The position numbers and the translations under genes are program-made. Shown here in pieces: positions 3,032-62,115 of a stretch of DNA of 64,000 nt; positions within the stretch are counted from its first letter, which is position 1; the number at the start of each line of letters is the position of its first letter. The notes beneath the pieces are model-generated. The model worked only from the letters and a program-made list of their open reading frames with translations. It was not told the DNA's origin and ran no database searches. The DNA lies in assembly GCA_943354835.1 (NCBI GenBank), contig CALRDH010000001.1, forward strand, positions 191,298-255,297, read 5' to 3'. The stretch is from a candidate division WWE3 bacterium. GTDB lineage: Bacteria > Patescibacteriota > WWE3 > 2-01-FULL-39-13.

Positions 3032-4204
3032 ATGAAAAATTTCGATCCCTATCAAATTATCACCATCGTACTTTCTATAGCAATTATCGCGTCTATTGGA
3101 GTTTTTATTTATAACCTATCGTTTGGTGGTTTTGGCAAAGCCGCTTTAAGTGTTGATACACAAAATGGCAAAGCAACAGTAATTATTAATGGAAAAGATA
3201 AAGGGGAAACACCTGTTTATACGGAAGAACTTAACGCAAAAAATATAAATGTCCAAGTAAATGGTGAAGGTGCTTCGTATAGCACAATTGTTAAACCTGC
3301 AGGAGGAACTTTGGCCGTCATAAAAAGAGAACTTGGTGCAGGTGGAGCTTTTAGCTCTGGCTTAAATATTTGGTTTACTAAAGGTTCTGGGGCAGATTCA
3401 ATAATTTCTGTTATATCCCCAGATAGTGAAGGCGTTTCTGTTATTGTTGATGGCGTTGAAATGGGAAAAACACCAGTTAAGTTTTCAACTGGGGATTTGT
3501 TAAAGCAAAATGCTGAAGGCAAATATGTTCTTACTTTTAAAAAAGATAGATATCAAGATCAAGAAGTAGAAATAAAAGTTAAGCCTGGATATGAATTAAA
3601 TATTAGAACGGACATGTTTTTGAAACCCTTATCATCTGAAATTGTTTCATTAAGTGGATTTGCAGAAGGAATAAGATTTGTCGGATTTAAAGGAATGACA
3701 GATGCGGCTTTTGCCGACCGAAAGGTCTGGGCAAAAGCCGCATCCTACTGGCTTTCTTCTCGTGGTGCAATCACATTTGATGGAAATAAGATTGAAAAAT
3801 TTAATTACTTTTTATCCGATGACGGAAAGATTTTCAATTCAGAAGCAAATGAAATTTCAGCCGAAGACCTAAAGGTTGAATCAGGAAATGTTGTAATGTA
3901 TTTAGGTTCTGGAAATGATTCAAATATTTCAGATCCCGCAAAAACTATTATCGAAAAGGCAACTGGGAAAATTTCTCCTGCAGCTCCAAGCGCAGATGGA
4001 AAAGGAAGAATTAAAATTAAACCAACTGGCATTGGATATTTAAAGGTTCGAAGTTCCGCTTCAACTGGAAGCACCCAAGTAGGAAAAGTTGATGAAGGCA
4101 CTATTTTCAATGTTATTGAAGTTAAAAATGGATGGTATAAAATTTCTTACGAAACTGGTAAAGATGGTTGGGTTAGTGGAACGTATGTTGAAAGCGTCGA
4201 TTAA
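3032..4204 (+). CDS. Membrane-anchored protein with PEGA-like repeats and C-terminal bacterial SH3 (SH3b) domain
   Basis: N-terminal TM helix; VxVDGxxxGxTP PEGA-like segments; C-terminal GYLKVRSSASTGSTQVGKVDEGTIFNVIEVKNGWYKISYETGKDGWVSGTYV resembles SH3_3. Confidence 0.5.
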   Translation: MKNFDPYQIITIVLSIAIIASIGVFIYNLSFGGFGKAALSVDTQNGKATVIINGKDKGETPVYTEELNAKNINVQVNGEGASYSTIVKPAGGTLAVIKRELGAGGAFSSGLNIWFTKGSGADSIISVISPDSEGVSVIVDGVEMGKTPVKFSTGDLLKQNAEGKYVLTFKKDRYQDQEVEIKVKPGYELNIRTDMFLKPLSSEIVSLSGFAEGIRFVGFKGMTDAAFADRKVWAKAASYWLSSRGAITFDGNKIEKFNYFLSDDGKIFNSEANEISAEDLKVESGNVVMYLGSGNDSNISDPAKTIIEKATGKISPAAPSADGKGRIKIKPTGIGYLKVRSSASTGSTQVGKVDEGTIFNVIEVKNGWYKISYETGKDGWVSGTYVESVD

Positions 4205-6170: not shown

Positions 6171-7601
6171 TTATTTTGTTGGTTTTTTTACAAAATTTAG
6201 AAGTGCGATTCCTGCAATGATTACTGTTGCAAGAGTTGCAAGTGATAGAGCTCTTAATTGTCCTGAAGTCAAAATTCCTATAGCTCCAAGTAATAATGTT
6301 GTTGACCAATAAAAGATTGCAACTTTTTGTTTACTCCAGCCTAATCCTTCTAATAATTTATGGTGCAAATGCTCCCTATCGCCCCAAAATGGCATTTGAC
6401 CGCGTCTTAATCTTCTTACAATTGCGAAAAGTCCATCTAAAAATGGAATCATTAAAACAATCAATGTCGTCGCGACTTTTGTACTTCCAAGAATTGATAA
6501 CGCTGCGATAATAAGGCCTGCTGAAGTTGCACCAAACCCCCACAATAATTTTTGAGGTGGCCATGTAAAAAGTGCCATTCCAAGTCCTGCTCCAGATGTA
6601 AGTGCGGCTAGTTTTATAAATATGCCAACGCCTGGATCTTCATCTAATGTTTGAAGCATTAATATAGAAATTACAAAAGACGCAATTGTTACAAGTCCTG
6701 CATAAACTCCATCGGTTCCATTTGCCCATGACATAAAATTCATTGTCCAACCAATCCATAGTGCTGATGCAAGAGCTCCTAAATAATAAATTTTATGTTC
6801 TCCCATGAAATCTATTACATATTTGTAGGAGTCTAGTTTTATTGCTTCGCCAAATGGATTTGAAATATAGATTAGAATTATTCCAGATAAAACAGCAATC
6901 GCAATTGATAGTCCTTGAACCAAAAGTCTCTTGTATGGGCTTACATCCTTTTTATCATCTATAAGACCAACAACAACGCAAATGATAGAGCCTAATATTA
7001 TTCCAACTATTTTTTGACTTGAAAGAATAGGTAGAAGAAAAATCCCTGGTATTAAAATTCCAAGTAAAAAAGCTAATCCACCAGCTCTTGGTACGGGTTT
7101 TTTCAAAAGCATTGCTGGATGTTTATGTCTGAATGGGTCATCCATAAAGTTATACTTTTTGGCTAACTTAATTACCATTGGTGTGACTACTATTGTTGTT
7201 AGAAATGACAAAATCATTGGAACAAGCAATAGCCTTGTCCAAATAGGAAATATGATTTCTTTTGAAACTGATATATTTGCAATTCTAATTGTGTATAAAC
7301 TTAAGACAGAAACACAAAGAAGTGTCACGACGGAATAAAACCTTGAAATATAGAAATTGGATTTAGTATTTTCGACTATAGAGAAGGTTGCGTTTGTGAT
7401 TATTATAATCGCCGAAAGTGCAAGTAATATCCAAATGTTTGATTTATCTGCTAATTGTAAATTTCCCCAAGGTAAGGTATAGAGAAACGGAATTTTTGGG
7501 GGCAAGAAACTGTATGCAATTTTAATGTAATAACTTGTTAATAAAAATATTATTGTGCTTGCAATGTATATCCAGGTTAAAGAATTTAGTGTAAGTTTCA
7601 T
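6171..7601 (-). CDS. Polyprenyl-phosphate sugar-1-phosphate transferase (MraY/WecA, GT4 family) with ~150 aa N-terminal membrane extension
   Basis: HKHPAMLLKKPVPRAGGLAFLLG, DDKKDVSPYKRL and NFMSWANGTDGVYAGL are conserved MraY/WecA cytoplasmic-loop motifs; 10+ TM segments. Confidence 0.65.
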   Translation of the reverse strand: MKLTLNSLTWIYIASTIIFLLTSYYIKIAYSFLPPKIPFLYTLPWGNLQLADKSNIWILLALSAIIIITNATFSIVENTKSNFYISRFYSVVTLLCVSVLSLYTIRIANISVSKEIIFPIWTRLLLVPMILSFLTTIVVTPMVIKLAKKYNFMDDPFRHKHPAMLLKKPVPRAGGLAFLLGILIPGIFLLPILSSQKIVGIILGSIICVVVGLIDDKKDVSPYKRLLVQGLSIAIAVLSGIILIYISNPFGEAIKLDSYKYVIDFMGEHKIYYLGALASALWIGWTMNFMSWANGTDGVYAGLVTIASFVISILMLQTLDEDPGVGIFIKLAALTSGAGLGMALFTWPPQKLLWGFGATSAGLIIAALSILGSTKVATTLIVLMIPFLDGLFAIVRRLRRGQMPFWGDREHLHHKLLEGLGWSKQKVAIFYWSTTLLLGAIGILTSGQLRALSLATLATVIIAGIALLNFVKKPTK

Positions 7602-9145
7602 CTTGTTTTGGGTGTATAAAATGTAGTTTTAGGAAGTTCTCCAAACATCATTCTAGTTTCTGCATACAAAAATGGAACGAATGAAAATGTTAGCAAATTC
7701 AGCATTAACGCCGGACCTTCGATTATTGCGATAATTCTTCGCCAAAGCGGCCATTCTTTTGGAAGGCTACCCTTATATAGCATCATACGAACATATGTTG
7801 CTGGTATAAAAATAAAAAGCCCTCCTGTTAGTATTATGCTTAAAACTTGAGGAAGTCCGTAAACCGTTGAGGAATTTTTAAAAGCTGTATTAACAAATGT
7901 AATCAAAGAAAATCCGACTGTAATTAAAAAAGCGCTAGTTCTCATTAATAAATGTCGTTCAATTTTTGAATAACCCCACAATATTTTTTGTTCTAACGTA
8001 GCTTTTTTATTGTTTGCTTGTTTTAAGATTGCTTTTAATGCTATTACTGTTGTAACGCTTCCCCATCCCCATCTGACAAGTTGTTTATACAAATTCTGAT
8101 TTGCATTTATAAAATTTTTGCCGCCTGTTGCATCTCCATAAATTGGAATATAAAAATGCTTCTCGGAAAAATCTCCTTCTCTTGCGCCAAATGCTCTCCA
8201 GTAAAATACAGTATCGTCAATCAATGTTGTATCCCAAAAATCAGCTGCGATTAGTGTATCAAGTGCGCACGAATAACACGAAAACGACTCTTTTGGCATG
8301 CTGAAAAGATGACCCGAGGTCCAATTTGAAAGCATTCCTAAAGTTACATTGTTTGCTTCGATTCTCGAAGTTAAAGGAACTGTCCAGATATTATTGCTAA
8401 AAAGATGTACAACGGTTTCATAAAATCTATTAAATCTTTTTGCATCAATCAAATATTCGTATGCAATTCTTGAAAGAAATTCTTTGTGGATTTTCCAGTC
8501 AGAATCGTATGTTGTGAATATATAATTCTTAATATTTTTACTTTGTTTTAAAAGCTCTTTGACTGCATGCTTTGCTGCCCATGCTCTATTTGGTGAAGCT
8601 ACTCCAACAATTTCTCCGGGGATTCCTTTTGGATGTGCAAAAAACATTAATTCTGGAAAATTATTTTTATCATAATTTCCACGGATTTTTTCTAAAGTAC
8701 TTTTAACTTTTTCTTCGCCGAACTCTTCAACTCCAACAACCAATAAAATATTTTTAACTGGGAATGAAGATTTTATTATTGTTTCGATAGTTTCACTTAA
8801 AATTTCATAACCTTCGCTTACTGTAGGGATTAATATTAAATGCTTGAGTTTGTCTAGGCTTTCGGGTAAGGTTTCATTATTTGGAAGGTCTTTAAAATTT
8901 AATTCTTTGCATTTTTCGTACCAATCTATTGAAATTTCCTTTTCGTAAATTTTGTAACCTTTAATTAGCCCGATTCCATGAGTTATTGCCATATATACCC
9001 AATAAACTGCTAGATACGTTAGTATAAATGCAGCGATTTTTGGAGCTATAAGACCAAGCCAAATTGGCATAAGAAGCATTGTCCAAGTTAATACACCCGG
9101 AACTGCCATTAAAAATCTGTCTAATTTATTTTTCGTATCGATCAT
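7598..9145 (-). CDS. Membrane glycosyltransferase, GT2-like processive synthase (QxxRW motif)
   Basis: 515 aa with TM helices flanking a cytoplasmic domain carrying DSDW and QLVRWGWG (QxxRW), reminiscent of cellulose/chitin-synthase-like GT2. It overlaps the neighbours by 4 nt, so is likely operonic. Confidence 0.4.
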   Translation of the reverse strand: MIDTKNKLDRFLMAVPGVLTWTMLLMPIWLGLIAPKIAAFILTYLAVYWVYMAITHGIGLIKGYKIYEKEISIDWYEKCKELNFKDLPNNETLPESLDKLKHLILIPTVSEGYEILSETIETIIKSSFPVKNILLVVGVEEFGEEKVKSTLEKIRGNYDKNNFPELMFFAHPKGIPGEIVGVASPNRAWAAKHAVKELLKQSKNIKNYIFTTYDSDWKIHKEFLSRIAYEYLIDAKRFNRFYETVVHLFSNNIWTVPLTSRIEANNVTLGMLSNWTSGHLFSMPKESFSCYSCALDTLIAADFWDTTLIDDTVFYWRAFGAREGDFSEKHFYIPIYGDATGGKNFINANQNLYKQLVRWGWGSVTTVIALKAILKQANNKKATLEQKILWGYSKIERHLLMRTSAFLITVGFSLITFVNTAFKNSSTVYGLPQVLSIILTGGLFIFIPATYVRMMLYKGSLPKEWPLWRRIIAIIEGPALMLNLLTFSFVPFLYAETRMMFGELPKTTFYTPKTR

Positions 9146-9912
9146 TTTAATTTAAAAAATGCAAAGGCATTTTTCGTGGTTCTATCTTCTACCTCTTTTG
9201 TGGAAATCCCTTTGATTTCAGCAATTTCTTGTGCTACAAGTTTAACATATTTCGATGAATTTACTTTTACTCCAGCCTTTTTGGCGCTTATCGGAATTAG
9301 GTATGGAGAATCTGTTTCTAACATTATTTTTTCTAGTGGAATTCTTTTTATGGCGTCTCTTAAATCACCCGCGTTTGGGTATGTAACGATGCCTGTTATA
9401 GATAACATAAGTCCAAGATCTAAGGCTTTTTTTGCGGTTTCGTAATTTTCGCAAAAACAGTGCCAGACGGCGGGAAATGGGGCGCGCCCCATTTCCCGCC
9501 CTAATATATCTAATAAATCTTCTGTCCCTTGTCTTGAATGTATTATTATTGGCAAATTCAATTCTCTTGATATTTCAATTTGAGAAATAAACAAGGATGC
9601 TTGAGCATCCTTGCTTCTCTTTATTTCTGGTAAGTGTGGATTTGTATAATCAAGTCCACATTCTCCAATTGCGACAACTTTTTTGCTTCTTGCTAATTCT
9701 TTTATCAATTTCAATTTTTCCCCGTCTGGGATTTCATTTTCGGGAATTACATCATGAGGATAAAGTCCGCATGTTGCAAAAACGTGATCATTTGAATTTG
9801 CTTTTTCTACTGCGTTTTTAGCTTCAGACAATGTGTGTCCGATGAGTATCTCTATGTCTGCTCTTTCTTCGTTGTTTTCGGATATTGAGTGAGTGTGCGT
9901 ATCAACAATCAT
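9142..9912 (-). CDS. tatD: TatD-family metal-dependent hydrolase/DNase
   Basis: MIVDTHTHS... (HxH), ...IGECGLDY..., ...WHCF... and ...ETDSPYL... are the four TatD metal-binding motifs in order. Confidence 0.85.
   Translation of the reverse strand: MIVDTHTHSISENNEERADIEILIGHTLSEAKNAVEKANSNDHVFATCGLYPHDVIPENEIPDGEKLKLIKELARSKKVVAIGECGLDYTNPHLPEIKRSKDAQASLFISQIEISRELNLPIIIHSRQGTEDLLDILGREMGRAPFPAVWHCFCENYETAKKALDLGLMLSITGIVTYPNAGDLRDAIKRIPLEKIMLETDSPYLIPISAKKAGVKVNSSKYVKLVAQEIAEIKGISTKEVEDRTTKNAFAFFKLK
9469..9500. repeat. 32-bp perfect GC-rich palindrome GGCGGGAAATGGGGCGC|GCCCCATTTCCCGCC embedded in the tatD coding sequence
   Basis: Read directly; it encodes the GREMGRAPFPA loop of TatD. GC-rich in an AT-rich genome. 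Confidence 0.7.
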
Positions 9913-9916
9913 TTTA

Positions 9917-10447
9917 CTAGATGAAAAATGGGAATATTCTGATTATTGCGTATGATCCAATTATCGCGACAAGAATTCCCAAAAAAGCTCCGCCAATGAC
10001 GTCTGCAAGATAGTGCTTTCCAAGAAATATTCTTGTTATGGCGACGAGGCCTGCTATACCAAATACAAACATTGTTTCAACAATATTGTATTTATAATAT
10101 ATGGTCATGAGTGTTGCTAATGTAAAGATATTTGATGTGTGTCCTGACGGGAATGCTCCACTTGATAATTTCATCCCCCATAAATTATTTTTGAACGTGG
10201 TTTTTGGGCGTGGAATTTTGAATAAAAATTTTATTCCTTCAGCTATTATTAATTGCGTTAGATAAATAGGAACGAATGCGAAAAGTGCTTGATAACCGCT
10301 TATTACCGCAATTATTATAAGGATTATGCCAGCTCCGAATGAACTTCCGAGTTCTGTGAATATAAATATAAACTTTTTAATTCGAGAATCTTTTATATCA
10401 TTTTCGAAGTCAAAAGATGTTTTGAGCAAGGAATTTATTAGCTTCAT
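9917..10447 (-). CDS. PAP2-family lipid phosphatase (undecaprenyl/decaprenyl-diphosphate or phospho-sugar-lipid phosphatase-like)
   Basis: KFLFKIPRP...PSGHTS...HYLADVIGG matches the PAP2 signature KxxxxxxRP / PSGH / SRxxxxxHxxxD, with multiple TM helices. Confidence 0.7.
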   Translation of the reverse strand: MKLINSLLKTSFDFENDIKDSRIKKFIFIFTELGSSFGAGIILIIIAVISGYQALFAFVPIYLTQLIIAEGIKFLFKIPRPKTTFKNNLWGMKLSSGAFPSGHTSNIFTLATLMTIYYKYNIVETMFVFGIAGLVAITRIFLGKHYLADVIGGAFLGILVAIIGSYAIIRIFPFFI

Positions 10448-16403: not shown

Positions 16404-17498
16404 ATGTCTTCTGCTTATAAGATTTGTGAAAAGTGTGATAGTGCATATACAGGAAGTGTTTGCTTAAAATGCGGGCATTTTGAAGATGCATCACATAATG
16501 ATAATCGGCTTGATGACACTGCGCAGAAGTCAGAAGACTTTGGTTTTCTGACTTCTGCGATTAATGAGAATCGTTCCAAACTTTCAGCAGATTTAAAAAG
16601 TGTTAAAAAGAAATCCCGTGGGTTTTTCTTTCCTTTGTTTCTTGGCATGGTTCTTTTAGGTATTGGAGGATATGCATATTTTCGTTTTATCTATTTTACC
16701 CCTGAATATATTAGTCCTGCTGTGCTTTCCGCACAGATAACAAAAAAGCCTGGTGAGATAGTTAACGAAGTTGTGGAAATCTTCGATTCTAAAGAAAAAT
16801 CTATTCCTTTAGATATTGGGCATGAAGAGGGTAATTTCGATCAGTATGATTTTGCACAGTTTGCTTCTCCCGATACATCTTTGCTTATTACTGCATTTAA
16901 TATCAGAGACGTTCTTTCAAAATATTATGAAGATAAGGGAATTTTAAAAAATTTAAAGTCCGAATTTGATTTATCTGATAATGATATTGATGTGTTTTTC
17001 TCAAAAGGGTTTGCAGTTTATTTCCCTGATAGCGATTTTTCCAAGTGGGGATTTGCAATTTATGTTGAAGACCAGAATTTTGTTGATTCACGTGTTAGTA
17101 AGTTGAAAGATAAAAAAGAGAAGAAGGGATTCGCTTTTAAAGATTATTTTGCTGACGTTGTAGAAATAAAATCGGATGATGAGAAGTCGATGCATTTTCT
17201 TTTAGTATCGAATTCAAAAGAATATCTTGATCAGATGAAAGAATCTTCAGAGGGAAACCTTACGAATTTAGCTGTGGATATAAAATATACTAGAGTTAAA
17301 ACTGATTTGCCAAAACTTGGACAAATTTCCTTTTACAGAAAAACTGATTCCTCTATTTGGAATTTAATGGTCGAGTGGATCGCTTCAAAATATGATTATG
17401 TTGGTTTAGACAAGATCTTATCTGCAATAGATGCTCCTGGCATAGTCTTTTTTTCAAACAGCCAAAAACTAAAAATAACAACAGCCGATGTGATGTGA
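16404..17498 (+). CDS. Hypothetical membrane protein with N-terminal zinc-ribbon
   Basis: CEKCDSAYTGSVCLKCGHF CxxC...CxxC ribbon, one TM helix, then a large extracytoplasmic domain. Confidence 0.4.
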   Translation: MSSAYKICEKCDSAYTGSVCLKCGHFEDASHNDNRLDDTAQKSEDFGFLTSAINENRSKLSADLKSVKKKSRGFFFPLFLGMVLLGIGGYAYFRFIYFTPEYISPAVLSAQITKKPGEIVNEVVEIFDSKEKSIPLDIGHEEGNFDQYDFAQFASPDTSLLITAFNIRDVLSKYYEDKGILKNLKSEFDLSDNDIDVFFSKGFAVYFPDSDFSKWGFAIYVEDQNFVDSRVSKLKDKKEKKGFAFKDYFADVVEIKSDDEKSMHFLLVSNSKEYLDQMKESSEGNLTNLAVDIKYTRVKTDLPKLGQISFYRKTDSSIWNLMVEWIASKYDYVGLDKILSAIDAPGIVFFSNSQKLKITTADVM

Positions 17499-37846: not shown

Positions 37847-39238
37847 TTATATCTTTTCATAAATCACTCCCTGCGCGTCTCTTTGAACTTCGGTGTAGTT
37901 GTATTTTGCGGGATTTTCACGAAGTAGTAAATCAAGAAATGTTCCGTTTGCGATTAGCAAATAATTTGTTTCATATTTGTTTAAAATCTGTTCCCAATCT
38001 GGTTGGGTTTGTGTTATTTTTAGCCATGTTGTGTATGGGCTTTCTCCGTTTTCACCTATCCATGCTGGCATTCTTCCGTCTATAAAAAATTTCATATTTG
38101 GTAATTTCCATACTAAAAAACCTCCCCATTCGTATGTGTTATATACATTTCCTGACTTATCCTTAAAGAATTCAACTTGATTGTTAAGAAATTGATCTTG
38201 GCCTTTATTATATTTATTTATCGAAACTACATTCGTAAATCCGAAATAAAGTATTAGGCCAAAAAGACATAAAAAGGAAAAATCATGAATAAATGAGGTC
38301 CATTTTTTTGGCATTTTAAATTTCCTGAATTCATAGCTTGCGAATATTACAGCTGAAAAATAATAAATCGGAAGATTTCTGCGGGCCGAAATTGCAAGGT
38401 ATGTCGATAATAAAAGAAGAACCAAAAAGAATATATTGAAATTTTTATAATTGGTTTTTGACAAATGTATGTAAAACAAAACTCCAGTTAGTGAAAGTAT
38501 CAAAAGAACATAATTTTGTGGAGGCGGAACCCATTCAGCAATTAATGTGTTCATTGGAATTTGCATGTGGTGATAAATTTCTAGGTAAATTCGGTAGCCA
38601 AATGGATTTATTAGAGTTGCGAGTATTCCTGTTATTGTGAGAAATATAAAACTTCTAAATTCACGGAAATCAACTTTTTTGAAAATCCATCTGTAAAAAA
38701 CATTTGCTGTGTAAATTCCCAAAACAATTGGCCCTAAGAAAAATCCTGCATGTGTGTTTGCCCAAATTAAAAATAGTAAGGGAAGAAGATATACAAGCTT
38801 TTTTCGTGATAAAAGGTAGATCTCTAGAAATAAAAATAAAAGCGTCATGAATTGAGACCTGAATCCAAGTGAAATCGTCGACCATGAAAAAGCCGTCGCA
38901 ATTAAAATAAGAGACATCTTTACTAGGAAATCTCCACGCATGGTTTTGTAAATCACAAAGATTATAAGCGATGAAACTATGGTTCCGATTATGCTAATTG
39001 CTACAAATCCACCAACATCGAAGGTTAGTGAAATTAGTGCGTCGTATATAAAACTTGGATATGCCCATTTGTAATCTTTTAAGAAATAGGTAAATGTATT
39101 GTCAATGCATGGTTTTTGAAGCTTGAGAAGTTCGCTTCCGCATCTGTAATGCCAGCCGAAATCCGGGTCTGTGTTTGGAATGAGGAATAGAAAAAAGATG
39201 AATGCAAAGAAGGATATGAAAAGTGTGTGCTTTCGCAT
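37847..39238 (-). CDS. GT-C-fold polytopic membrane protein, paralog 4
   Basis: 463 aa with 12+ TM helices. Confidence 0.4.
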   Translation of the reverse strand: MRKHTLFISFFAFIFFLFLIPNTDPDFGWHYRCGSELLKLQKPCIDNTFTYFLKDYKWAYPSFIYDALISLTFDVGGFVAISIIGTIVSSLIIFVIYKTMRGDFLVKMSLILIATAFSWSTISLGFRSQFMTLLFLFLEIYLLSRKKLVYLLPLLFLIWANTHAGFFLGPIVLGIYTANVFYRWIFKKVDFREFRSFIFLTITGILATLINPFGYRIYLEIYHHMQIPMNTLIAEWVPPPQNYVLLILSLTGVLFYIHLSKTNYKNFNIFFLVLLLLSTYLAISARRNLPIYYFSAVIFASYEFRKFKMPKKWTSFIHDFSFLCLFGLILYFGFTNVVSINKYNKGQDQFLNNQVEFFKDKSGNVYNTYEWGGFLVWKLPNMKFFIDGRMPAWIGENGESPYTTWLKITQTQPDWEQILNKYETNYLLIANGTFLDLLLRENPAKYNYTEVQRDAQGVIYEKI

Positions 39239-39251
39239 CTTTCTATTATAC

Positions 39252-39293
39252 GGGCCAGGCCCGAAAGGGCCTAGGCCCTTTCGGGCCTGGCCC
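39252..39293. repeat. 42-bp perfect GC-rich palindrome GGGCCAGGCCCGAAAGGGCC-TA-GGCCCTTTCGGGCCTGGCCC forming the core of a divergent promoter pair
   Basis: Read directly. Each half contains a GGCCC-GAAA/TTTC-GGGCC hairpin. A TATAAT lies 1 nt beyond the left end on the minus strand, and TAGAAT lies 10 nt beyond the right end on the plus strand (ATG at 39317). Confidence 0.7.
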
Positions 39294-39316
39294 CCATAGA
39301 ATGCTAGAATATCCGC

Positions 39317-41092
39317 ATGGACAGTATTTCCGAAATAAAATCAAAGTTAAATATCATCGACCTTATAGGAACTTATACTCCTTTAAAGCAGTCTGGCAAA
39401 AATCACAAAGGTTTGTGTCCGTTTCACTCTGAAAAAACACCGTCATTTATGGTTTCCGAAGATCTCCAAAGATATAGATGTTTTGGCTGCGGAAAAAGTG
39501 GCGATGTCTTCAACTTTATTATGGATGTTGAAGGTGTAGATTTTCCTGAAGCCTTAAAAGTCCTTGCTGAAAAAACTGGAGTAAAACTTGATTTAAAGTC
39601 TGATGCTTTTAACAAAAAAGATAAAGATGCGACATCAAAAATATATGAGATCAATGAAATCGCTTCGAAGTTTTATCAGCATTTATTGAATAAACACGAA
39701 TTTGGCGAAGTCGGCCGTGCTTATATAAAAAAACGCCAGGTTTCCGCAAAAATTGTTAAGGATTTTGGTATCGGATACGCGCCAAATTCGTGGGATAGCC
39801 TTTCAAGATATTTGATTTCAAAAAAATTTACAGCAGAAGAAATTATTAATTCAGGCCTTGGTAAATATAGGAAATCTTCTAAAAACACTTACGATATTTT
39901 TCGCGGACGTCTGATGTTTCCATTAAGAGACAACATGGGCCGAATAACAGGCTTTTCCGGGAGAGCACTTTTTGAAGATCAAGATCCAAAATATATAAAT
40001 ACAGCTGAAACAGAAGTTTTTCATAAAGAAAGATTTCTTTTCGGTCTTGATTTGGCGAAAAACGCAATTCGAAAGGCTAATTTGGCGATTATTGTCGAAG
40101 GTGAATTCGATATGATTTCGCCTTATCAAGCTGGTTACGAAAATATTGTTGCTTCTAAAGGAACGGCTTTAACAATGGGACAAGTGAATTTATTAAAAAG
40201 ATATGCTCAAACAATTGTTTTGATTTTCGATAATGATGTCGCCGGAGCCGATGCCTCAGTACGTGGAATCGACATTATTAAAGATTGCGGACTCGATATA
40301 AAAATCGCAGTTTTGCCGGAAGGTTCAAAAGATCCTGACGAACTTATTAAAAAAGATACAAATTTATTTGGTGAGGTTGTTAGAAATGCATTGCCTTTGT
40401 GGGATTATTATTTTTCGTATGCTTCAAGCAAATATAATTTGTCTAATATCTTTGAAAAGAAAAAGGCTTCGCAGTTTTTGATAAATATTATTAATGAAAT
40501 CGAGGATGAGGTTGTCAGGTCAACATATATTAAAAAGTTCTCTGTGCTTTTTGATGTTGATGAATCAGTTGTAAAAAATCAAATTGATAAAAGTGTTCCT
40601 TCAACAAGAAGTAGATTTACGACTGATGTTCCAGAAAAAATAGTTATGGAAAGTGGTTTTGAAGATTATCCAGGTTCTGAAGTTTATGTTTTAACTCTTT
40701 TGATGGATGCAAATAATTTAGAATTCGAAGCTTTTTCAAATGTAATTAATCCAGATTTTTTTACAAATCAGTTTATTAAGGATTTATTTATAGAACTTAC
40801 GGATAGTAGAAAAGATTCAAAAAGCTTTGATGTAAAGGCCTTTTATGCTAAACTTCAGCACAGTCACCCTAATGTATATAGTTTGTTTGAAAAAGTTTAT
40901 TTACGTGGCAGATTTGAAGATACGCAGTCTCTTTCTGATGAGATCGCATTTGCTATTTTGCGCTTAAAACAAGCCTTCCAAAAAAGAAGGCGTAAAGAAT
41001 TGGCGGTTGCCATTGCAAAAGCTGAAGCGGTTTCTGATTTTACTCTTGTTGCAAGTTTGCAAAAAGAGGTTAAAGAGGTTTCGAATCTTTGA
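39317..41092 (+). CDS. dnaG: DNA primase
   Basis: Zinc ribbon [13 protein letters not shown]...CFGCGKSGD, then TOPRIM ([15 protein letters not shown]); 591 aa. Confidence 0.9.
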
Positions 41093-57440: not shown

Positions 57441-59063
57441 TTGATATTTCTTATGTATAAAACATTTAAATCTGGACGGTTTCATTACTTTATTCTTATT
57501 TCTTTTTTATTAATCGCTCTTTTTTTTAGGTTTTATAATCTTGGATATTCTGATTTTCAAGGGGATGAAGCGAAAATTTTTTTATATAGAACATTAGATC
57601 AGGATTTTATTTCAACTTTATTTACAAATTCCAAGGGTCCGGGGCAATATATCGTTGTTTATCTGATGGATAAAATATATGGGATTATCGGCGGAGGTTT
57701 TGACCAAGAACCTTTTTTTAGAATTCCATTTGCTTTAGTCGGGGGAGGTTCCGTCTGGCTTTTTTATAGACTTGGAAAATTATTTGGCGGCAAGAATGCA
57801 GGCTTGTATGCCTGCATTCTTGCCAGTTTAAATGGATTTTTCATTGCTTTTTCTCGGATTGTTCAATACCAATCTTTCAATATCCTTTTGTCCTTAATAT
57901 CATCTATATTTTTTATAATTTATCTGAAAAATAAATCTAAAAAACACTTGTTTGTATCCGGGTTTGTGTCAGCAATTGGTTTCCTTTTCCATTATGACGC
58001 GATTTTTTACATCGTTCCTCAATGCATAATCCTACTTCTTTCTCTAAATCGAGAAACTTTAATTAGAAATATTTCAGCTTATATTTTTGGTTTATCATTT
58101 GTTCTAGTTTTCTTTTTGCCTTATATATTTAGTAGTTCATTTTATTCAACTATAAATTACATTTTGAACGAAAGGTCAATTGGCTTTTTTAGTTACGATT
58201 CCATTTATTATGGTTTTAAATTGATATCAATATATTTCCCTAAGGAATTTGTAATTTCAATTGGTCTAGTTTTATGTTTATCGTTTATTTTTTGGTATAA
58301 AACACACCGAGACAAATTGGTTTTGATATTACTTTTTTTAATCACAGCTTTAATTATTGCCAGATATATTAATGTTGAGCCACGGAGAATTCTAATTTTC
58401 CCATCAACATTTTTAGCAGTATTTGCAATTATTATTTTTCTAATGAAAAAATTAAAAGTTTCATTAATAGATAGCTACTTGTTTCTATGGGTCAGTATTT
58501 CTTTCGTAGTTTTCTTCTTATTTTTAAACAAACCGTTAACTCATATCTACAATGTTTTTATTCCATTAACTTTTGTTGTTGCAATTAATTTTGATAGATT
58601 AAAGTATCATTTAACAAAAATTATTGGGCTGTCGTTGGTAACTCTTGCATTAATATCATTCAATTATCAAGCTTATATTGAAAACGGCTCGGAATATCCA
58701 TGGAGTAAAAAAACATACCTATTTGGCGATATGTATAGTGGGATTTCAGAAGGTGAGATAGTTCGAGGGATCTTTGGTTTTCCATATTATAGGAATTTAA
58801 ATAATCTAGGCATGTCAGTTTCATCAATTATTCAAAAAAATGAAAAGCCTATTTTATACTCAAACATTAAGGACTCAAGGCTTAAGTTTTATGTTGACGC
58901 GAAATATCCTGCTAATGGAAGTAATGAAATTCCTGTGTATGTAGAAATTAAAAACTCTATTGACTATGAAGGCAATTATCCACCAAAGGATTTGATTTTA
59001 GAAAAAGTTTTGGAGACGACATGGTATTCTGTTTATAGAGGAAAGTTTTATGTCTTTTATTAA
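57441..59063 (+). CDS. GT-C-fold glycosyltransferase (PMT_2/ArnT-like), paralog 6
   Basis: YNLGYSDFQGDEAKIFLY (DE motif in the first periplasmic loop), 12+ TM helices, C-terminal soluble domain. Confidence 0.5.
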   Translation: MIFLMYKTFKSGRFHYFILISFLLIALFFRFYNLGYSDFQGDEAKIFLYRTLDQDFISTLFTNSKGPGQYIVVYLMDKIYGIIGGGFDQEPFFRIPFALVGGGSVWLFYRLGKLFGGKNAGLYACILASLNGFFIAFSRIVQYQSFNILLSLISSIFFIIYLKNKSKKHLFVSGFVSAIGFLFHYDAIFYIVPQCIILLLSLNRETLIRNISAYIFGLSFVLVFFLPYIFSSSFYSTINYILNERSIGFFSYDSIYYGFKLISIYFPKEFVISIGLVLCLSFIFWYKTHRDKLVLILLFLITALIIARYINVEPRRILIFPSTFLAVFAIIIFLMKKLKVSLIDSYLFLWVSISFVVFFLFLNKPLTHIYNVFIPLTFVVAINFDRLKYHLTKIIGLSLVTLALISFNYQAYIENGSEYPWSKKTYLFGDMYSGISEGEIVRGIFGFPYYRNLNNLGMSVSSIIQKNEKPILYSNIKDSRLKFYVDAKYPANGSNEIPVYVEIKNSIDYEGNYPPKDLILEKVLETTWYSVYRGKFYVFY

Positions 59064-62045: not shown

Positions 62046-62084
62046 GCTTTAGGTTTCAGAACTTTTAAGTTTTGAAAAAGAATC

Positions 62085-62115
62085 GGCGGTCGCGAAAGCG
62101 ACCGCCTTTTTTTTT
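62085..62115 (+). terminator. Rho-independent terminator GGCGGTCGC-GAAA-GCGACCGCC plus T9
   Basis: 9-bp GC-rich stem, GNRA loop and 9 consecutive T, located 40 nt after the RRM gene stop. Confidence 0.65.

What the first reader, a model, noticed from the sequence alone, without database searches (positions are those of the whole stretch)
9469..9500. 32-bp perfect GC-rich palindrome inside the TatD coding sequence, length-neutral with respect to the protein
GGCGGGAAATGGGGCGC|GCCCCATTTCCCGCC sits in-frame in tatD and encodes GREMGRAPFPA. That stretch is the variable loop between the conserved ...DIL and HCF motifs and has about the same length as in other TatD proteins, so it is not a simple insertion. 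A 16+16 perfect palindrome cannot be chance. It could be a protein-binding or recombination site, an intragenic RNA hairpin affecting expression of the downstream GT2 and WecA-like genes in the same operon, or a domesticated palindromic repeat of the same family as the one at 39252. Both share short GC-rich arms around an A/T-containing core.
Basis: seen in the sequence. Interest (0 to 1): 0.6.

Follow-up and report, generated by a model that had tools for sequence, protein, structure and literature searches.

The report
Conserved coding palindrome in tatD
A perfect 32-base GC-rich palindrome is written into the normal codons of a TatD hydrolase gene of a WWE3 (candidate phyla radiation) bacterium; relatives have kept it perfectly paired while its sequence changed, most likely because each half is copied from the other during DNA replication.

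Summary
Bases 9469-9500 are a perfect 16+16 palindrome, 75% GC in a 34-36% GC window. It lies in frame in tatD (9142-9912, minus strand) and encodes G138-A148.

It is not an insertion, a dispersed repeat or an assembly artefact. Orthologous tatD genes from independent assemblies, down to 54% protein identity, carry the same hairpin. Six of seven distinct versions have perfect 14-18 bp arms.

Between lineages there are four base-pair swaps, all transversions, and some change amino acids. The 15-bp core shows no G.U pair. The 2-nt centre varies freely and includes reverse-complement pairs (AA/TT, TC/GA). Two related lineages lack the hairpin and use ordinary AT-rich codons there.

The window holds three more long perfect hairpins inside genes and one between genes. 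Relatives hold others, some old and some lineage-specific. In the young ones one arm is a new reverse-complement copy of a conserved neighbouring segment.

Best reading (about 0.55): a coding palindrome created and kept perfect by template switching, surviving at a permissive site in the protein. A selected mRNA hairpin (about 0.3) is not excluded.

The closest precedent is the coding palindromes of Nematomorpha mitochondria. I found no description of this in bacteria.

The parts
9469..9483 (-). Arm of the conserved 15-bp core. On the tatD sense strand this is the 3' arm, GCC CCA TTT CCC GCC, encoding A144-A148.
   Evidence: perfectly complementary to 9486-9500. Identical in the window, L001 and L002 despite 9-17% gene-wide nucleotide divergence.
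9484..9485 (-). Central dinucleotide (GC here), which would be the tip of the hairpin loop. It forms positions 2-3 of codon R143.
   Evidence: the centre is GC, TC, AT, AA, TT or GA in different lineages, giving R, L, H, Q, L, R. AA/TT and TC/GA are reverse complements of each other.
9486..9500 (-). The other arm of the core. On the sense strand this is the 5' arm, GG CGG GAA ATG GGG C, encoding G138-G142 and the first base of R143.
   Evidence: It is built from the rarest synonymous codons of this genome: CGG 3%, GGG 9%, CGC 7%.
9142..9912 (-). The tatD gene (256 aa) that carries the palindrome.
   Evidence: PF01026, E 4.6e-62. AlphaFold2 model with mean pLDDT 94.8.
9589..9616 (-). A second, weaker hairpin in tatD: 13 bp with one mismatch that is a G.U pair on the sense RNA. 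It is specific to the window lineage.
   Evidence: It is absent from all orthologues, including the 91%-identical L001.
3701..3744 (+). Same class: 15-bp perfect hairpin with a 14-nt loop inside the PEGA/SH3 gene (3032-4204).
   Evidence: The arms are 100% conserved at nucleotide level, third codon positions included, in L001, L003, L004, L006, L007 and L171-175, while the flanks and loop vary.
16522..16559 (+). Same class, young: 14-bp perfect stem, or 17 bp counting one sense-strand G.U pair, in the 364-aa ORF 16404-17498.
   Evidence: The left arm is new and comes with a 4-codon insertion. The right arm encodes the conserved FLTSA. No hairpin exists in L003, L007, L174 or L175.
57789..57824 (+). 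Same class: 15-bp perfect hairpin with a 6-nt loop inside the PMT_2 glycosyltransferase gene (57441-59063).
   Evidence: Its conservation in relatives was not tested.
39252..39293 (.). Same class but intergenic: a 21+21 perfect palindrome upstream of dnaG.
   Evidence: The 87%-DnaG relative L176 has only the seed GGGGCCAGGCCC at this place, so the window's version is a lineage-specific expansion.
6171..10447 (-). The co-oriented gene block PAP2, tatD, 515-aa membrane protein and GT4 (WecA-like). An RNA-level effect of the hairpin would act within this block.
   Evidence: The same gene order is found in all relatives.

Best explanation
The element is a coding palindrome. It is a 15-18 bp perfect inverted repeat laid over the native codons for the end of helix 5, the following loop and the start of strand 6 of TatD. 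It was inherited from an ancestor of this WWE3 subclade.

Shown: it adds no length. It is orthologous across lineages. Its arms stay perfectly Watson-Crick paired while their sequence changes. The 2-nt centre is unconstrained. It forces very rare GC-rich codons. It is one of several such hairpins in these genomes.

Inferred mechanism: the arms are copied from one another by intra-strand template switching during replication or repair (quasi-palindrome correction). A change in one arm is then either erased or transferred to the other arm in a single step. Loops can be inverted, and new hairpins arise when a reverse-complement copy of a nearby conserved segment overwrites a tolerant segment. Protein-level selection then decides which palindromes survive. 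The site just before the H-C-F motif is the most permissive place in TatD.

Nucleotide conservation and GC-richness follow from the double constraint. Each arm must both code and pair, and third codon positions pair with second positions of the other arm. The arms also encode Ala, Pro, Arg and Gly, whose codons are GC-rich.

The mRNA must also contain a hairpin of about -30 kcal/mol. Whether the cell makes use of it has not been shown.
For: (1) Orthology and covariation. One search shows 15-18 bp perfect arms in the window, L001, L002/173-175, L003/L011, L172 and L008/9. One search gives 91.6% of cells paired against 44-53% when partners are slid. Four pairs changed on both sides (GC to CG three times, GC to UA once), and 0 of 500 shuffles reached the covariation score.
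(2) All swaps are transversions, and two are adjacent (GG to TC paired with CC to GA). They change amino acids (M to I, G to R, P to E, P to R). No G.U pair occurs in the 15-bp core. This is the multi-base, intermediate-free pattern that PMC8794818 attributes to template switching.
(3) Loop inversion. L003 has AA and L172 has TT at the centre, although the two genes differ at only 5.8% of sites. TC in L001 and GA in L008 are also reverse complements.
(4) All-or-none distribution. The window has five perfect stems of 14-21 bp and none of 11-13 bp.
(5) New hairpins with one copied arm. This is seen in the 364-aa ORF, in the second L008 hairpin, where the nearly invariant W150 became C and lengthened the stem, at 9589-9616, and in the expansion of a seed at 39252.
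(6) Gains and losses. There is no palindrome in L007 (3-aa deletion) or L010, and none in 21.8 kb of L177. L008, L176 and L171-175 each have extra ones.
(7) Permissive site. In 175 tatD loci the only perfect stems of 14 or more in the H125-F153 segment are those of this WWE3 clade plus two unrelated sequences, L041 and L108. Parcubacterial TatDs carry insertions at the same point that make this segment up to 56 aa longer.
(8) Codon choice given the peptide has joint probability 5e-9.
(9) The same reasoning was applied to coding palindromes in Nematomorpha mitochondria (PMC6649704).
Against: Template switching explains how the pairing is kept, but it does not exclude that pairing is also selected. 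The arms are unchanged across 17.5% gene-wide divergence and persist to 54% protein identity. Palindromes arose independently at the same TatD position in three lineages. Both facts would also fit a function.
GC-richness of 50-76% in a 35% GC genome may reflect selection for stability.
The loop-inversion evidence rests on one close pair, and adjacent double differences are not rare in that comparison (5 among 45).
Only seven distinct sequences were available.
One variant (L171) carries four arm substitutions that shift the register. It could be real decay or an assembly error.
No replication or repair gene inventory of these genomes was examined.
Confidence: 0.55

Rival explanations
1. It is a selected mRNA structural element. 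A very stable hairpin in the middle of tatD would slow ribosomes, block 3'-5' exonucleases or provide a double-strand RNase site. It would thereby tune expression or decay of the PAP2-tatD-515aa-GT4 transcript. Template switching would only supply the compensatory changes.
For: The stem is deeply conserved with covariation. The arms are invariant over 17.5% divergence. Rare codons are tolerated. The RNA fold z-score is -4.06 with a 14-bp stem and 4-nt loop. Imperfect members of the class have their wobble as G.U on the sense strand (9589-9616 and 16522-16559). Related genomes have a 21-bp hairpin pairing the stop codon of the upstream gene with the Shine-Dalgarno sequence and ATG of ubiA, which looks like translational coupling. 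Long hairpins arose independently at the same TatD site in L041 and L108.
Against: The hairpin is dispensable. The sister clade P0004-6/L007 and P0008/9/L010 lack it, with no replacement hairpin in tatD. The core has no G.U pairs at all and all swaps are transversions, which is unusual for RNA-level compensation. Class members sit at no consistent position within genes or operons. There is no Rfam match. No U tract follows the stem, so it is not an intrinsic terminator.
Confidence: 0.3
2. It is a DNA site for a dimeric protein or a recombinase, such as an operator, a parS- or dif-like site, or an attachment site.
For: It has perfect dyad symmetry. The window and L002 versions are palindromic through the centre. 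Intragenic parS sites exist in other bacteria (own knowledge; PMC4368675 was only listed and not read).
Against: The arms change by paired swaps and do not keep a recognition sequence. The centre is not symmetric in most lineages. 15-bp half-sites are far longer than known half-sites. There is no resemblance to parS or dif consensus sequences (own knowledge, not tested with a tool). There are no promoter-like sites nearby. Other class members have unrelated sequences and loops of up to 14 nt.
Confidence: 0.05
3. It is a domesticated copy of a mobile palindromic repeat (RPE-, REP- or MITE-like) of the same family as the element at 39252, inserted in frame in an ancestor.
For: It is GC-rich against an AT-rich background. 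Parcubacterial TatDs do carry hairpin-forming GC-rich in-frame insertions in this very loop. The loop is 3 aa longer than in P0004-6.
Against: There is no second copy of the arm motif anywhere in the window or in 177 loci. The sequence is unrelated to 39252. The encoded peptide aligns residue for residue with palindrome-free orthologues of equal length, and the E-M...P-F motif is ancestral. No target-site duplication is visible in the flanking sequence.
Confidence: 0.05
4. It is an assembly or sequencing artefact, such as a fold-back chimera or a collapsed hairpin.
For: One database member (P0129) is frameshifted exactly at the palindrome, and one contig (L171) has a cluster of four changes there. 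This suggests the site is error-prone.
Against: The reading frame is intact. Both flanks are continuous tatD sequence. The hairpin recurs, with lineage-specific variants, in independent assemblies made by different pipelines.
Confidence: 0.01

Closest known systems
[quoted passage not shown] 2019, PMC6649704)
   Same: Perfect inverted repeats embedded in protein-coding genes with both arms translated. Gene length is unchanged. Repeats are either perfect or absent. Gains and losses differ between species. Active arm-to-arm conversion by template switching was proposed, and the function is unknown.
   Different: Here the genes are bacterial chromosomal genes of a CPR lineage. The arms are only 14-21 bp, against up to 284 bp. 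They are GC-rich in an AT-rich genome. At least one is demonstrably orthologous, with covariation, across deep divergence (54% protein identity).
Template-switch mutations that create and maintain RNA hairpins (Monttinen and Loytynoja 2022, PMC8794818); quasi-palindrome correction in bacteria
   Same: Multi-base compensatory changes without intermediates, inversion of the loop, and new perfect stems made from reverse-complement copies. Searches show all of these here.
   Different: That work concerned rRNA and other RNA genes, where the stem has a known function. Here the stems lie inside protein-coding sequence and no RNA function is known.
Rickettsia palindromic elements (RPE) and other in-frame MITE-like insertions
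   Same: A palindromic sequence is translated as part of a functional protein at a permissive surface site.
   Different: RPEs are about 100-150 bp long, multi-copy, dispersed, clearly inserted, and lose repeat identity with time (PMC6649704 discussion; the size is own knowledge). This element is single-copy, length-neutral and stays perfect.
Rho-independent terminators and REP-type mRNA-stabilising hairpins
   Same: A GC-rich perfect stem with a short loop. A canonical terminator of this genome is at 62076-62115.
   Different: There is no T tract after the stem on either strand. It is located in the middle of a gene, and there is no repeat family.
Palindromic GC clusters and 'byp' elements in yeast mitochondrial genes
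   Same: GC-rich palindromes inside genes of AT-rich genomes (PMC6649704 discussion).
   Different: Those are insertions that are mobile or bypassed in translation. This one is translated and aligns with the native residues.

Membership tests
Coding palindrome (Nematomorpha type) | A perfect inverted repeat lies inside a CDS, and both arms encode residues that align with homologues | tested here: met
   the 16+16 perfect repeat encodes G138-A148, which aligns with palindrome-free orthologues of equal length.
Coding palindrome (Nematomorpha type) | Repeats are either perfect or absent, with no excess of imperfect ones | tested here: met
   five perfect stems of 14-21 bp and none of 11-13 bp; six of seven distinct tatD versions are perfect. 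The exception is L171.
Coding palindrome (Nematomorpha type) | Gains and losses differ between related genomes | tested here: met
   the tatD hairpin is lost in L007 and L010. New hairpins occur in the window (16522, 9589, 39252), in L008 (two) and in L176 (one).
Coding palindrome (Nematomorpha type) | Long arms (tens to hundreds of bp), present in most genes of the genome | tested here: not met
   Arms are 14-21 bp, and there are about four intragenic cases in 64 kb.
Template-switch-maintained stem | Multi-nucleotide compensatory changes without wobble intermediates | tested here: met
   four pairs changed on both sides, all by transversion, two of them adjacent. There are no G.U pairs in the core.
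Template-switch-maintained stem | Inversion of the loop between close relatives | tested here: inconclusive
   AA in L003 against TT in L172 at 5.8% divergence. This is a single case, and other adjacent double differences exist in that comparison.
Template-switch-maintained stem | A statistical excess of template-switch events on a reconstructed phylogeny (four-point alignment test) | not testable with these tools
   It needs whole genomes of several close WWE3 relatives and dedicated software.
Dispersed palindromic repeat (REP, RPE, MITE) | Several similar copies in the genome | tested here: not met
   there is no other copy in the window at 3 mismatches or fewer; in 177 loci the arm motif occurs only at this tatD site. 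The rest of the source genome was not available.
Dispersed palindromic repeat (REP, RPE, MITE) | Present as an insertion relative to orthologues that lack it | tested here: not met
   L010/P0008/P0009 have the same loop length without a palindrome.
Intrinsic terminator | A GC-rich stem-loop immediately followed by a U tract | tested here: not met
   One search reports no terminator-like site at 9469-9500. One search shows GTCTGGCAC (sense strand) and CTAATATAT (antisense strand) after the stem.
Known structured RNA family (Rfam 15) | A match at or above the gathering score | tested here: not met
   One search found only tRNAs in the window. In one search the best permissive hit scored 25 bits against a gathering score of 100.
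Protein-binding dyad (operator, parS, dif) | A recognition sequence conserved across orthologous sites | tested here: not met
   the arms change by paired swaps, and the centre is asymmetric in four of six versions. Binding itself cannot be tested with these tools.

The most novel reading that the evidence does not exclude
WWE3 bacteria, and more widely CPR bacteria including the Parcubacteria-type lineages, may carry a previously undescribed genome-wide class of actively maintained GC-rich coding palindromes. Examples are the same TatD site in three unrelated lineages, a conserved covarying palindrome in MetRS, and others in LeuRS, DivIC, GT4 and PMT_2 genes. This would reflect either a peculiarity of replication or repair in these reduced genomes, such as loss of the exonucleases that suppress quasi-palindrome template switching, or an RNA-level layer of control acting inside coding sequences.
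Probability: 0.3. Interest if true: 0.75.

Novelty: new variant of a known kind. Interest (0 to 1): 0.6.

Why it matters
If correct, this is a bacterial counterpart of the coding palindromes known from hairworm mitochondria. It has an advantage that case lacked: an orthologous series in which the same stem can be followed through paired base swaps, changes of the centre and loss.

It shows that covariation, normally taken as proof of a functional RNA helix, can arise inside a protein-coding gene. There a copying mechanism is at least as good an explanation. This matters for covariation-based RNA discovery in metagenomes.

It also gives a testable handle on DNA replication and repair in CPR bacteria. 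The question is which missing nuclease or helicase allows such palindromes to arise and persist.

Finally, it shows how far protein sequence can be overwritten by a mutational process. One example is the nearly invariant W150 becoming C in one lineage.

Tried and rejected
It gave no new close orthologues, though the loci served as controls.
- The genome-contig scan found only one close genome (L011). It did identify the lineage as candidate division WWE3.
- Rfam searches at gathering and permissive thresholds found nothing relevant.
- The promoter and terminator scan found no site at the palindrome.
- The dispersed-repeat idea was rejected.
- The idea of the same family as 39252 was rejected on sequence.
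- The insertion idea was rejected by alignment.
- An internal start at the ATG inside the arm was considered and dropped, because L003 has ATT there.
- Strand asymmetry of folding energy was not informative. The plus strand folds better everywhere, with a mean of -5.6 against -4.7 kcal/mol, probably because of its G and T excess.
- P0006 could not be fetched as DNA.

Full report
**Observation.** Window 9469-9500 reads GGCGGGAAATGGGGCG|CGCCCCATTTCCCGCC. It is a perfect 16+16 palindrome with no spacer. It is 75% GC, while the window averages 30-40% GC. The 16-mer with up to three mismatches occurs only as these two arms; 100 shuffles gave a mean of 0.05 matches. A scan for perfect stems with loops of 20 nt or less found five of 14-21 bp and none of 11-13 bp. 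Thirty composition-preserving shuffles produced none of 14 bp or more. The palindrome lies in frame in ORF 9142-9912 on the minus strand, a TatD_DNase protein (Pfam E 4.6e-62). The codons are G|GG CGG GAA ATG GGG CGC GCC CCA TTT CCC GCC|, encoding G138-A148.

**Context.** The closest named genome is a candidate division WWE3 bacterium, 74% identical in TatD. The exact protein is on record from a 429,718-bp NCBI/ENA contig. The gene order PAP2, tatD, 515-aa membrane protein, GT4 (WecA-like), next to nusA-infB, is the same in all relatives. A confident AlphaFold2 model (pLDDT 94.8) places G138-R143 at the C-terminal end of helix 130-143, A144-P147 in the loop, and A148 at the start of strand 148-150. 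That strand leads into the catalytic H151-C-F.

**It is not an insertion.** Relatives with and without the palindrome have the same loop length. The residues E-M..(A/S)-P-F-x-A-V-W-H-C-F are shared with palindrome-free orthologues such as P0008/P0009 (EEMSDSPFRAV). The protein segment is therefore native, and the palindrome is written over it.

**It is inherited and it covaries.** I fetched the DNA of orthologues and compared it codon by codon.
- L001 (91% protein identity): ACGGCGGGAAATGGGGC-tc-GCCCCATTTCCCGCCGT.
- L002 and L173-175 (82%): an 18+18 perfect palindrome with centre GCATGC.
- L003, L011 and L172 (74%): GGCGGGAAATTCGGC-aa or tt-GCCGAATTTCCCGCC.
- L008 and L009 (54%): GCGCGAAATGGCGC-ga-GCGCCATTTCGCGC.

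On an alignment of the seven distinct sequences, the 17-pair helix is 91.6% paired, against 44-53% when partners are slid by 1-3 columns. Four pairs changed on both sides, and 0 of 500 shuffles reached the covariation score. All four swaps are transversions: GC to CG three times and GC to UA once. Two of them are adjacent. They change amino acids (M to I, G to R, P to E, P to R). No G.U pair occurs in the 15-bp core.

The arms are identical between L001 and L002, although those genes differ at 17.5% of sites. The central dinucleotide is free: GC, TC, AT, AA, TT and GA, giving R, L, H, Q, L and R. L003 (AA) and L172 (TT) differ at only 5.8% of sites, and their centres are reverse complements. 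So are TC (L001) and GA (L008).

L007 (70% identity, with a 3-aa deletion at this site) and L010 (52%) have no palindrome. They use ordinary AT-rich codons there (CCA GCT GTG; AGC CCT TTT AGA GCT). In a neighbour-joining tree, the palindrome-bearing P0007 branches outside both the window clade and its palindrome-free sister clade P0004-6. The simplest history is one ancient gain followed by a loss. In the window the palindrome uses the rarest synonymous codons: CGG 3%, CCC 6%, CGC 7%, GGG 9% and GCC 12% of their families. The joint probability of this codon choice given the peptide is 5e-9.

**It is one of a class.**
- The 15-bp hairpin at 3701-3744 in the PEGA/SH3 gene has arms that are 100% conserved at nucleotide level in every relative that covers it, while its loop and flanks vary.
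- The hairpin at 16522-16559 is specific to the window lineage. Its right arm encodes the conserved FLTSA. Its left arm is new and comes with a 4-codon insertion.
- The weaker hairpin at 9589-9616 in tatD is also window-specific.
- L008 and L009 have two more. One lies 5 nt after the first; its left arm is the H-C-F motif, its right arm overwrites a variable segment, and the nearly invariant W150 has become C, which lengthens the stem. The other is an 18+18 perfect palindrome in the GT4 gene with no change of length.
- L176 has its own 16-bp hairpin in a DivIC gene.
- L171 and L173-175 have a 21-bp hairpin pairing the stop codon of the upstream gene with the ribosome-binding site and ATG of ubiA.
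- L177, a more distant WWE3 genome, has none in 21.8 kb.
- The intergenic 21+21 palindrome at 39252 is unrelated in sequence to the tatD one. L176 has only the seed GGGGCCAGGCCC at the same place upstream of dnaG, so the window's version is a lineage-specific expansion.
- The tatD arm motif occurs nowhere else in the window or in 177 loci.

**Controls.** In 1.85 Mb of loci from other organisms, most perfect stems of 14 bp or more are intergenic and flanked by A/T runs, as expected for terminators. GC-rich stems inside ORFs were found almost only in Parcubacteria- or Moranbacteria-type CPR loci: three in 249 kb of named CPR loci and three in 95 kb of unnamed loci with Moranbacteria-like TatD. 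There were none in 900 kb of named non-CPR loci. The untitled metagenome loci held two more, L108 (see the next paragraph) and L144.

Three of the CPR cases are one orthologous palindrome in a 473-475-aa gene upstream of tatD. From its sequence motifs I read it as methionyl-tRNA synthetase (MetRS); this was not checked with a family search. The palindrome sits at the same codons (about 371-387) in L041, L055 and L051, and its arms differ between the three loci while remaining perfect in each.

Across 175 tatD loci the H125-F153 segment normally contains perfect stems of 3-8 bp. The exceptions of 14 bp or more are this WWE3 clade and two unrelated sequences at the same position: L041 (16 bp, in a 12-aa insertion) and L108 (15+15, length-neutral). 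Several Parcubacteria TatDs carry hairpin-forming insertions at this point, which make the segment up to 56 aa longer.

**Interpretation.** The data rule out chance, an artefact, a mobile repeat and an insertion. They show a nucleotide-level constraint that keeps two coding segments complementary. Two explanations remain.

The first is that the pairing is kept by copying. The supporting observations are the perfect Watson-Crick arms in six of seven versions, the absence of wobble intermediates, the transversion and dinucleotide swaps, the reverse-complement centres, the all-or-none length distribution, and the new hairpins in which one arm is a reverse-complement copy of a conserved neighbour, even at the cost of a conserved tryptophan. 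These are the footprints described for template-switch mutations (PMC8794818). The same argument was made for the coding palindromes of Nematomorpha mitochondria (PMC6649704). Under this view the rare GC-rich codons and the slow evolution of the arms follow from a double constraint. The pairing phase is codon position 1 with 1, 2 with 3, and 3 with 2, so every synonymous site pairs with a second codon position of the other arm. The arms also encode Ala, Pro, Arg and Gly. Recurrence at one TatD site would reflect survival at the most permissive place in the protein.

The second is that the hairpin is selected in the mRNA, where it would be about -30 kcal/mol, with template switching merely supplying the compensating changes. 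In its favour are the long persistence, the independent origins at the same site, the sense-strand G.U pairs in imperfect class members, and the ubiA coupling-like hairpin. Against it are its dispensability in sister lineages, the scattered positions of class members, and the lack of any terminator tail or Rfam match.

I put the first explanation at about 0.55 and the second at about 0.30. A DNA-binding or recombination site and a domesticated repeat are each at about 0.05.

**Novelty.** Coding palindromes and template-switch maintenance are both known, but I found no description of them in bacterial chromosomal genes or in CPR bacteria in the searchable literature. I therefore file this as a new variant of a known kind.

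Noticed in passing
L041:3839-3879, L055:9036-9078, L051:5571-5607: A perfect palindrome with 16-21 bp arms that are themselves small hairpins (for example CCGAAGGTTGAACCTTCGGA-a-TCCGAAGGTTCAACCTTCGG). It sits at the same codons (about 371-387, peptide PKVEPSESEGSTFG) of a 473-475-aa gene upstream of tatD, which I read from its sequence motifs as methionyl-tRNA synthetase (not checked with a family search). It occurs in three different Parcubacteria/Moranbacteria-type genomes, with arm differences between them that keep each one perfect.
   Followed up: partly
L108:714-744 and L041:4650-4686: Two unrelated perfect palindromes (15+15 and 16-5-16) lie at exactly the same TatD position as the window's, just before the H-C/S/F-F motif. 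They occur in lineages only 35-38% identical to the window protein, which points to independent origins at one site.
   Followed up: partly
L043:10001-10966, L055:10001-10885, L079:10001-10870: Parcubacterial TatD genes carry GC-rich, hairpin-forming in-frame insertions in the same loop. They make the H..HSF segment up to 56 aa longer than in the window. They include a repeated ...PEYRGGGE... unit containing CCTCCCCTG-nnnn-CAGGGGAGG.
   Followed up: partly
window 39247-39298 and L176:~9960-9990: The 42-52 bp intergenic palindrome between ORF 37847-39238(-) and dnaG (39317-41092) is a lineage-specific expansion. The 87%-DnaG relative has only GGGGCCAGGCCC there. The window's version can fold as one 21-bp stem or as two tandem hairpins, one with a GAAA loop and one with a TTTC loop.
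   Followed up: partly
L171:10393-10437, also L173-175; L003:14698-14742: A 21-bp perfect hairpin pairs the stop codon of the upstream gene with the Shine-Dalgarno-like AAAGGGG and the ATG of ubiA, which looks like a translational-coupling structure. L003 keeps only the outer 13 bp. The window and L001 have lost it.
   Followed up: no
L171:6097-6156 (protein P0127) and protein P0129: One contig has four substitutions confined to the tatD palindrome (RRE to GGK), which shift its register. Another database entry is frameshifted exactly at the palindrome. The site is either mutationally unstable or prone to sequencing errors.
   Followed up: partly
window 7598-9145 (-): The 515-aa multi-pass membrane ORF between tatD and the GT4 gene has no Pfam match at E 0.001 or better. 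It is nevertheless conserved in position in all relatives.
   Followed up: partly
window 57789-57824: A 15-bp perfect hairpin with a 6-nt loop lies inside a PMT_2 (ArnT/PMT-like) glycosyltransferase gene. It encodes GKNAGLYACILA in a transmembrane region. Its conservation in relatives was not examined.
   Followed up: no
L056 (Gracilibacteria), TatD segment: In-frame stop codons appear in the standard-table translation of the Gracilibacteria tatD (HNRNA*MKIFDFLEK*DKF...). This would fit the alternative genetic code 25 used by that lineage (own knowledge); which stop codon is involved was not checked.
   Followed up: no
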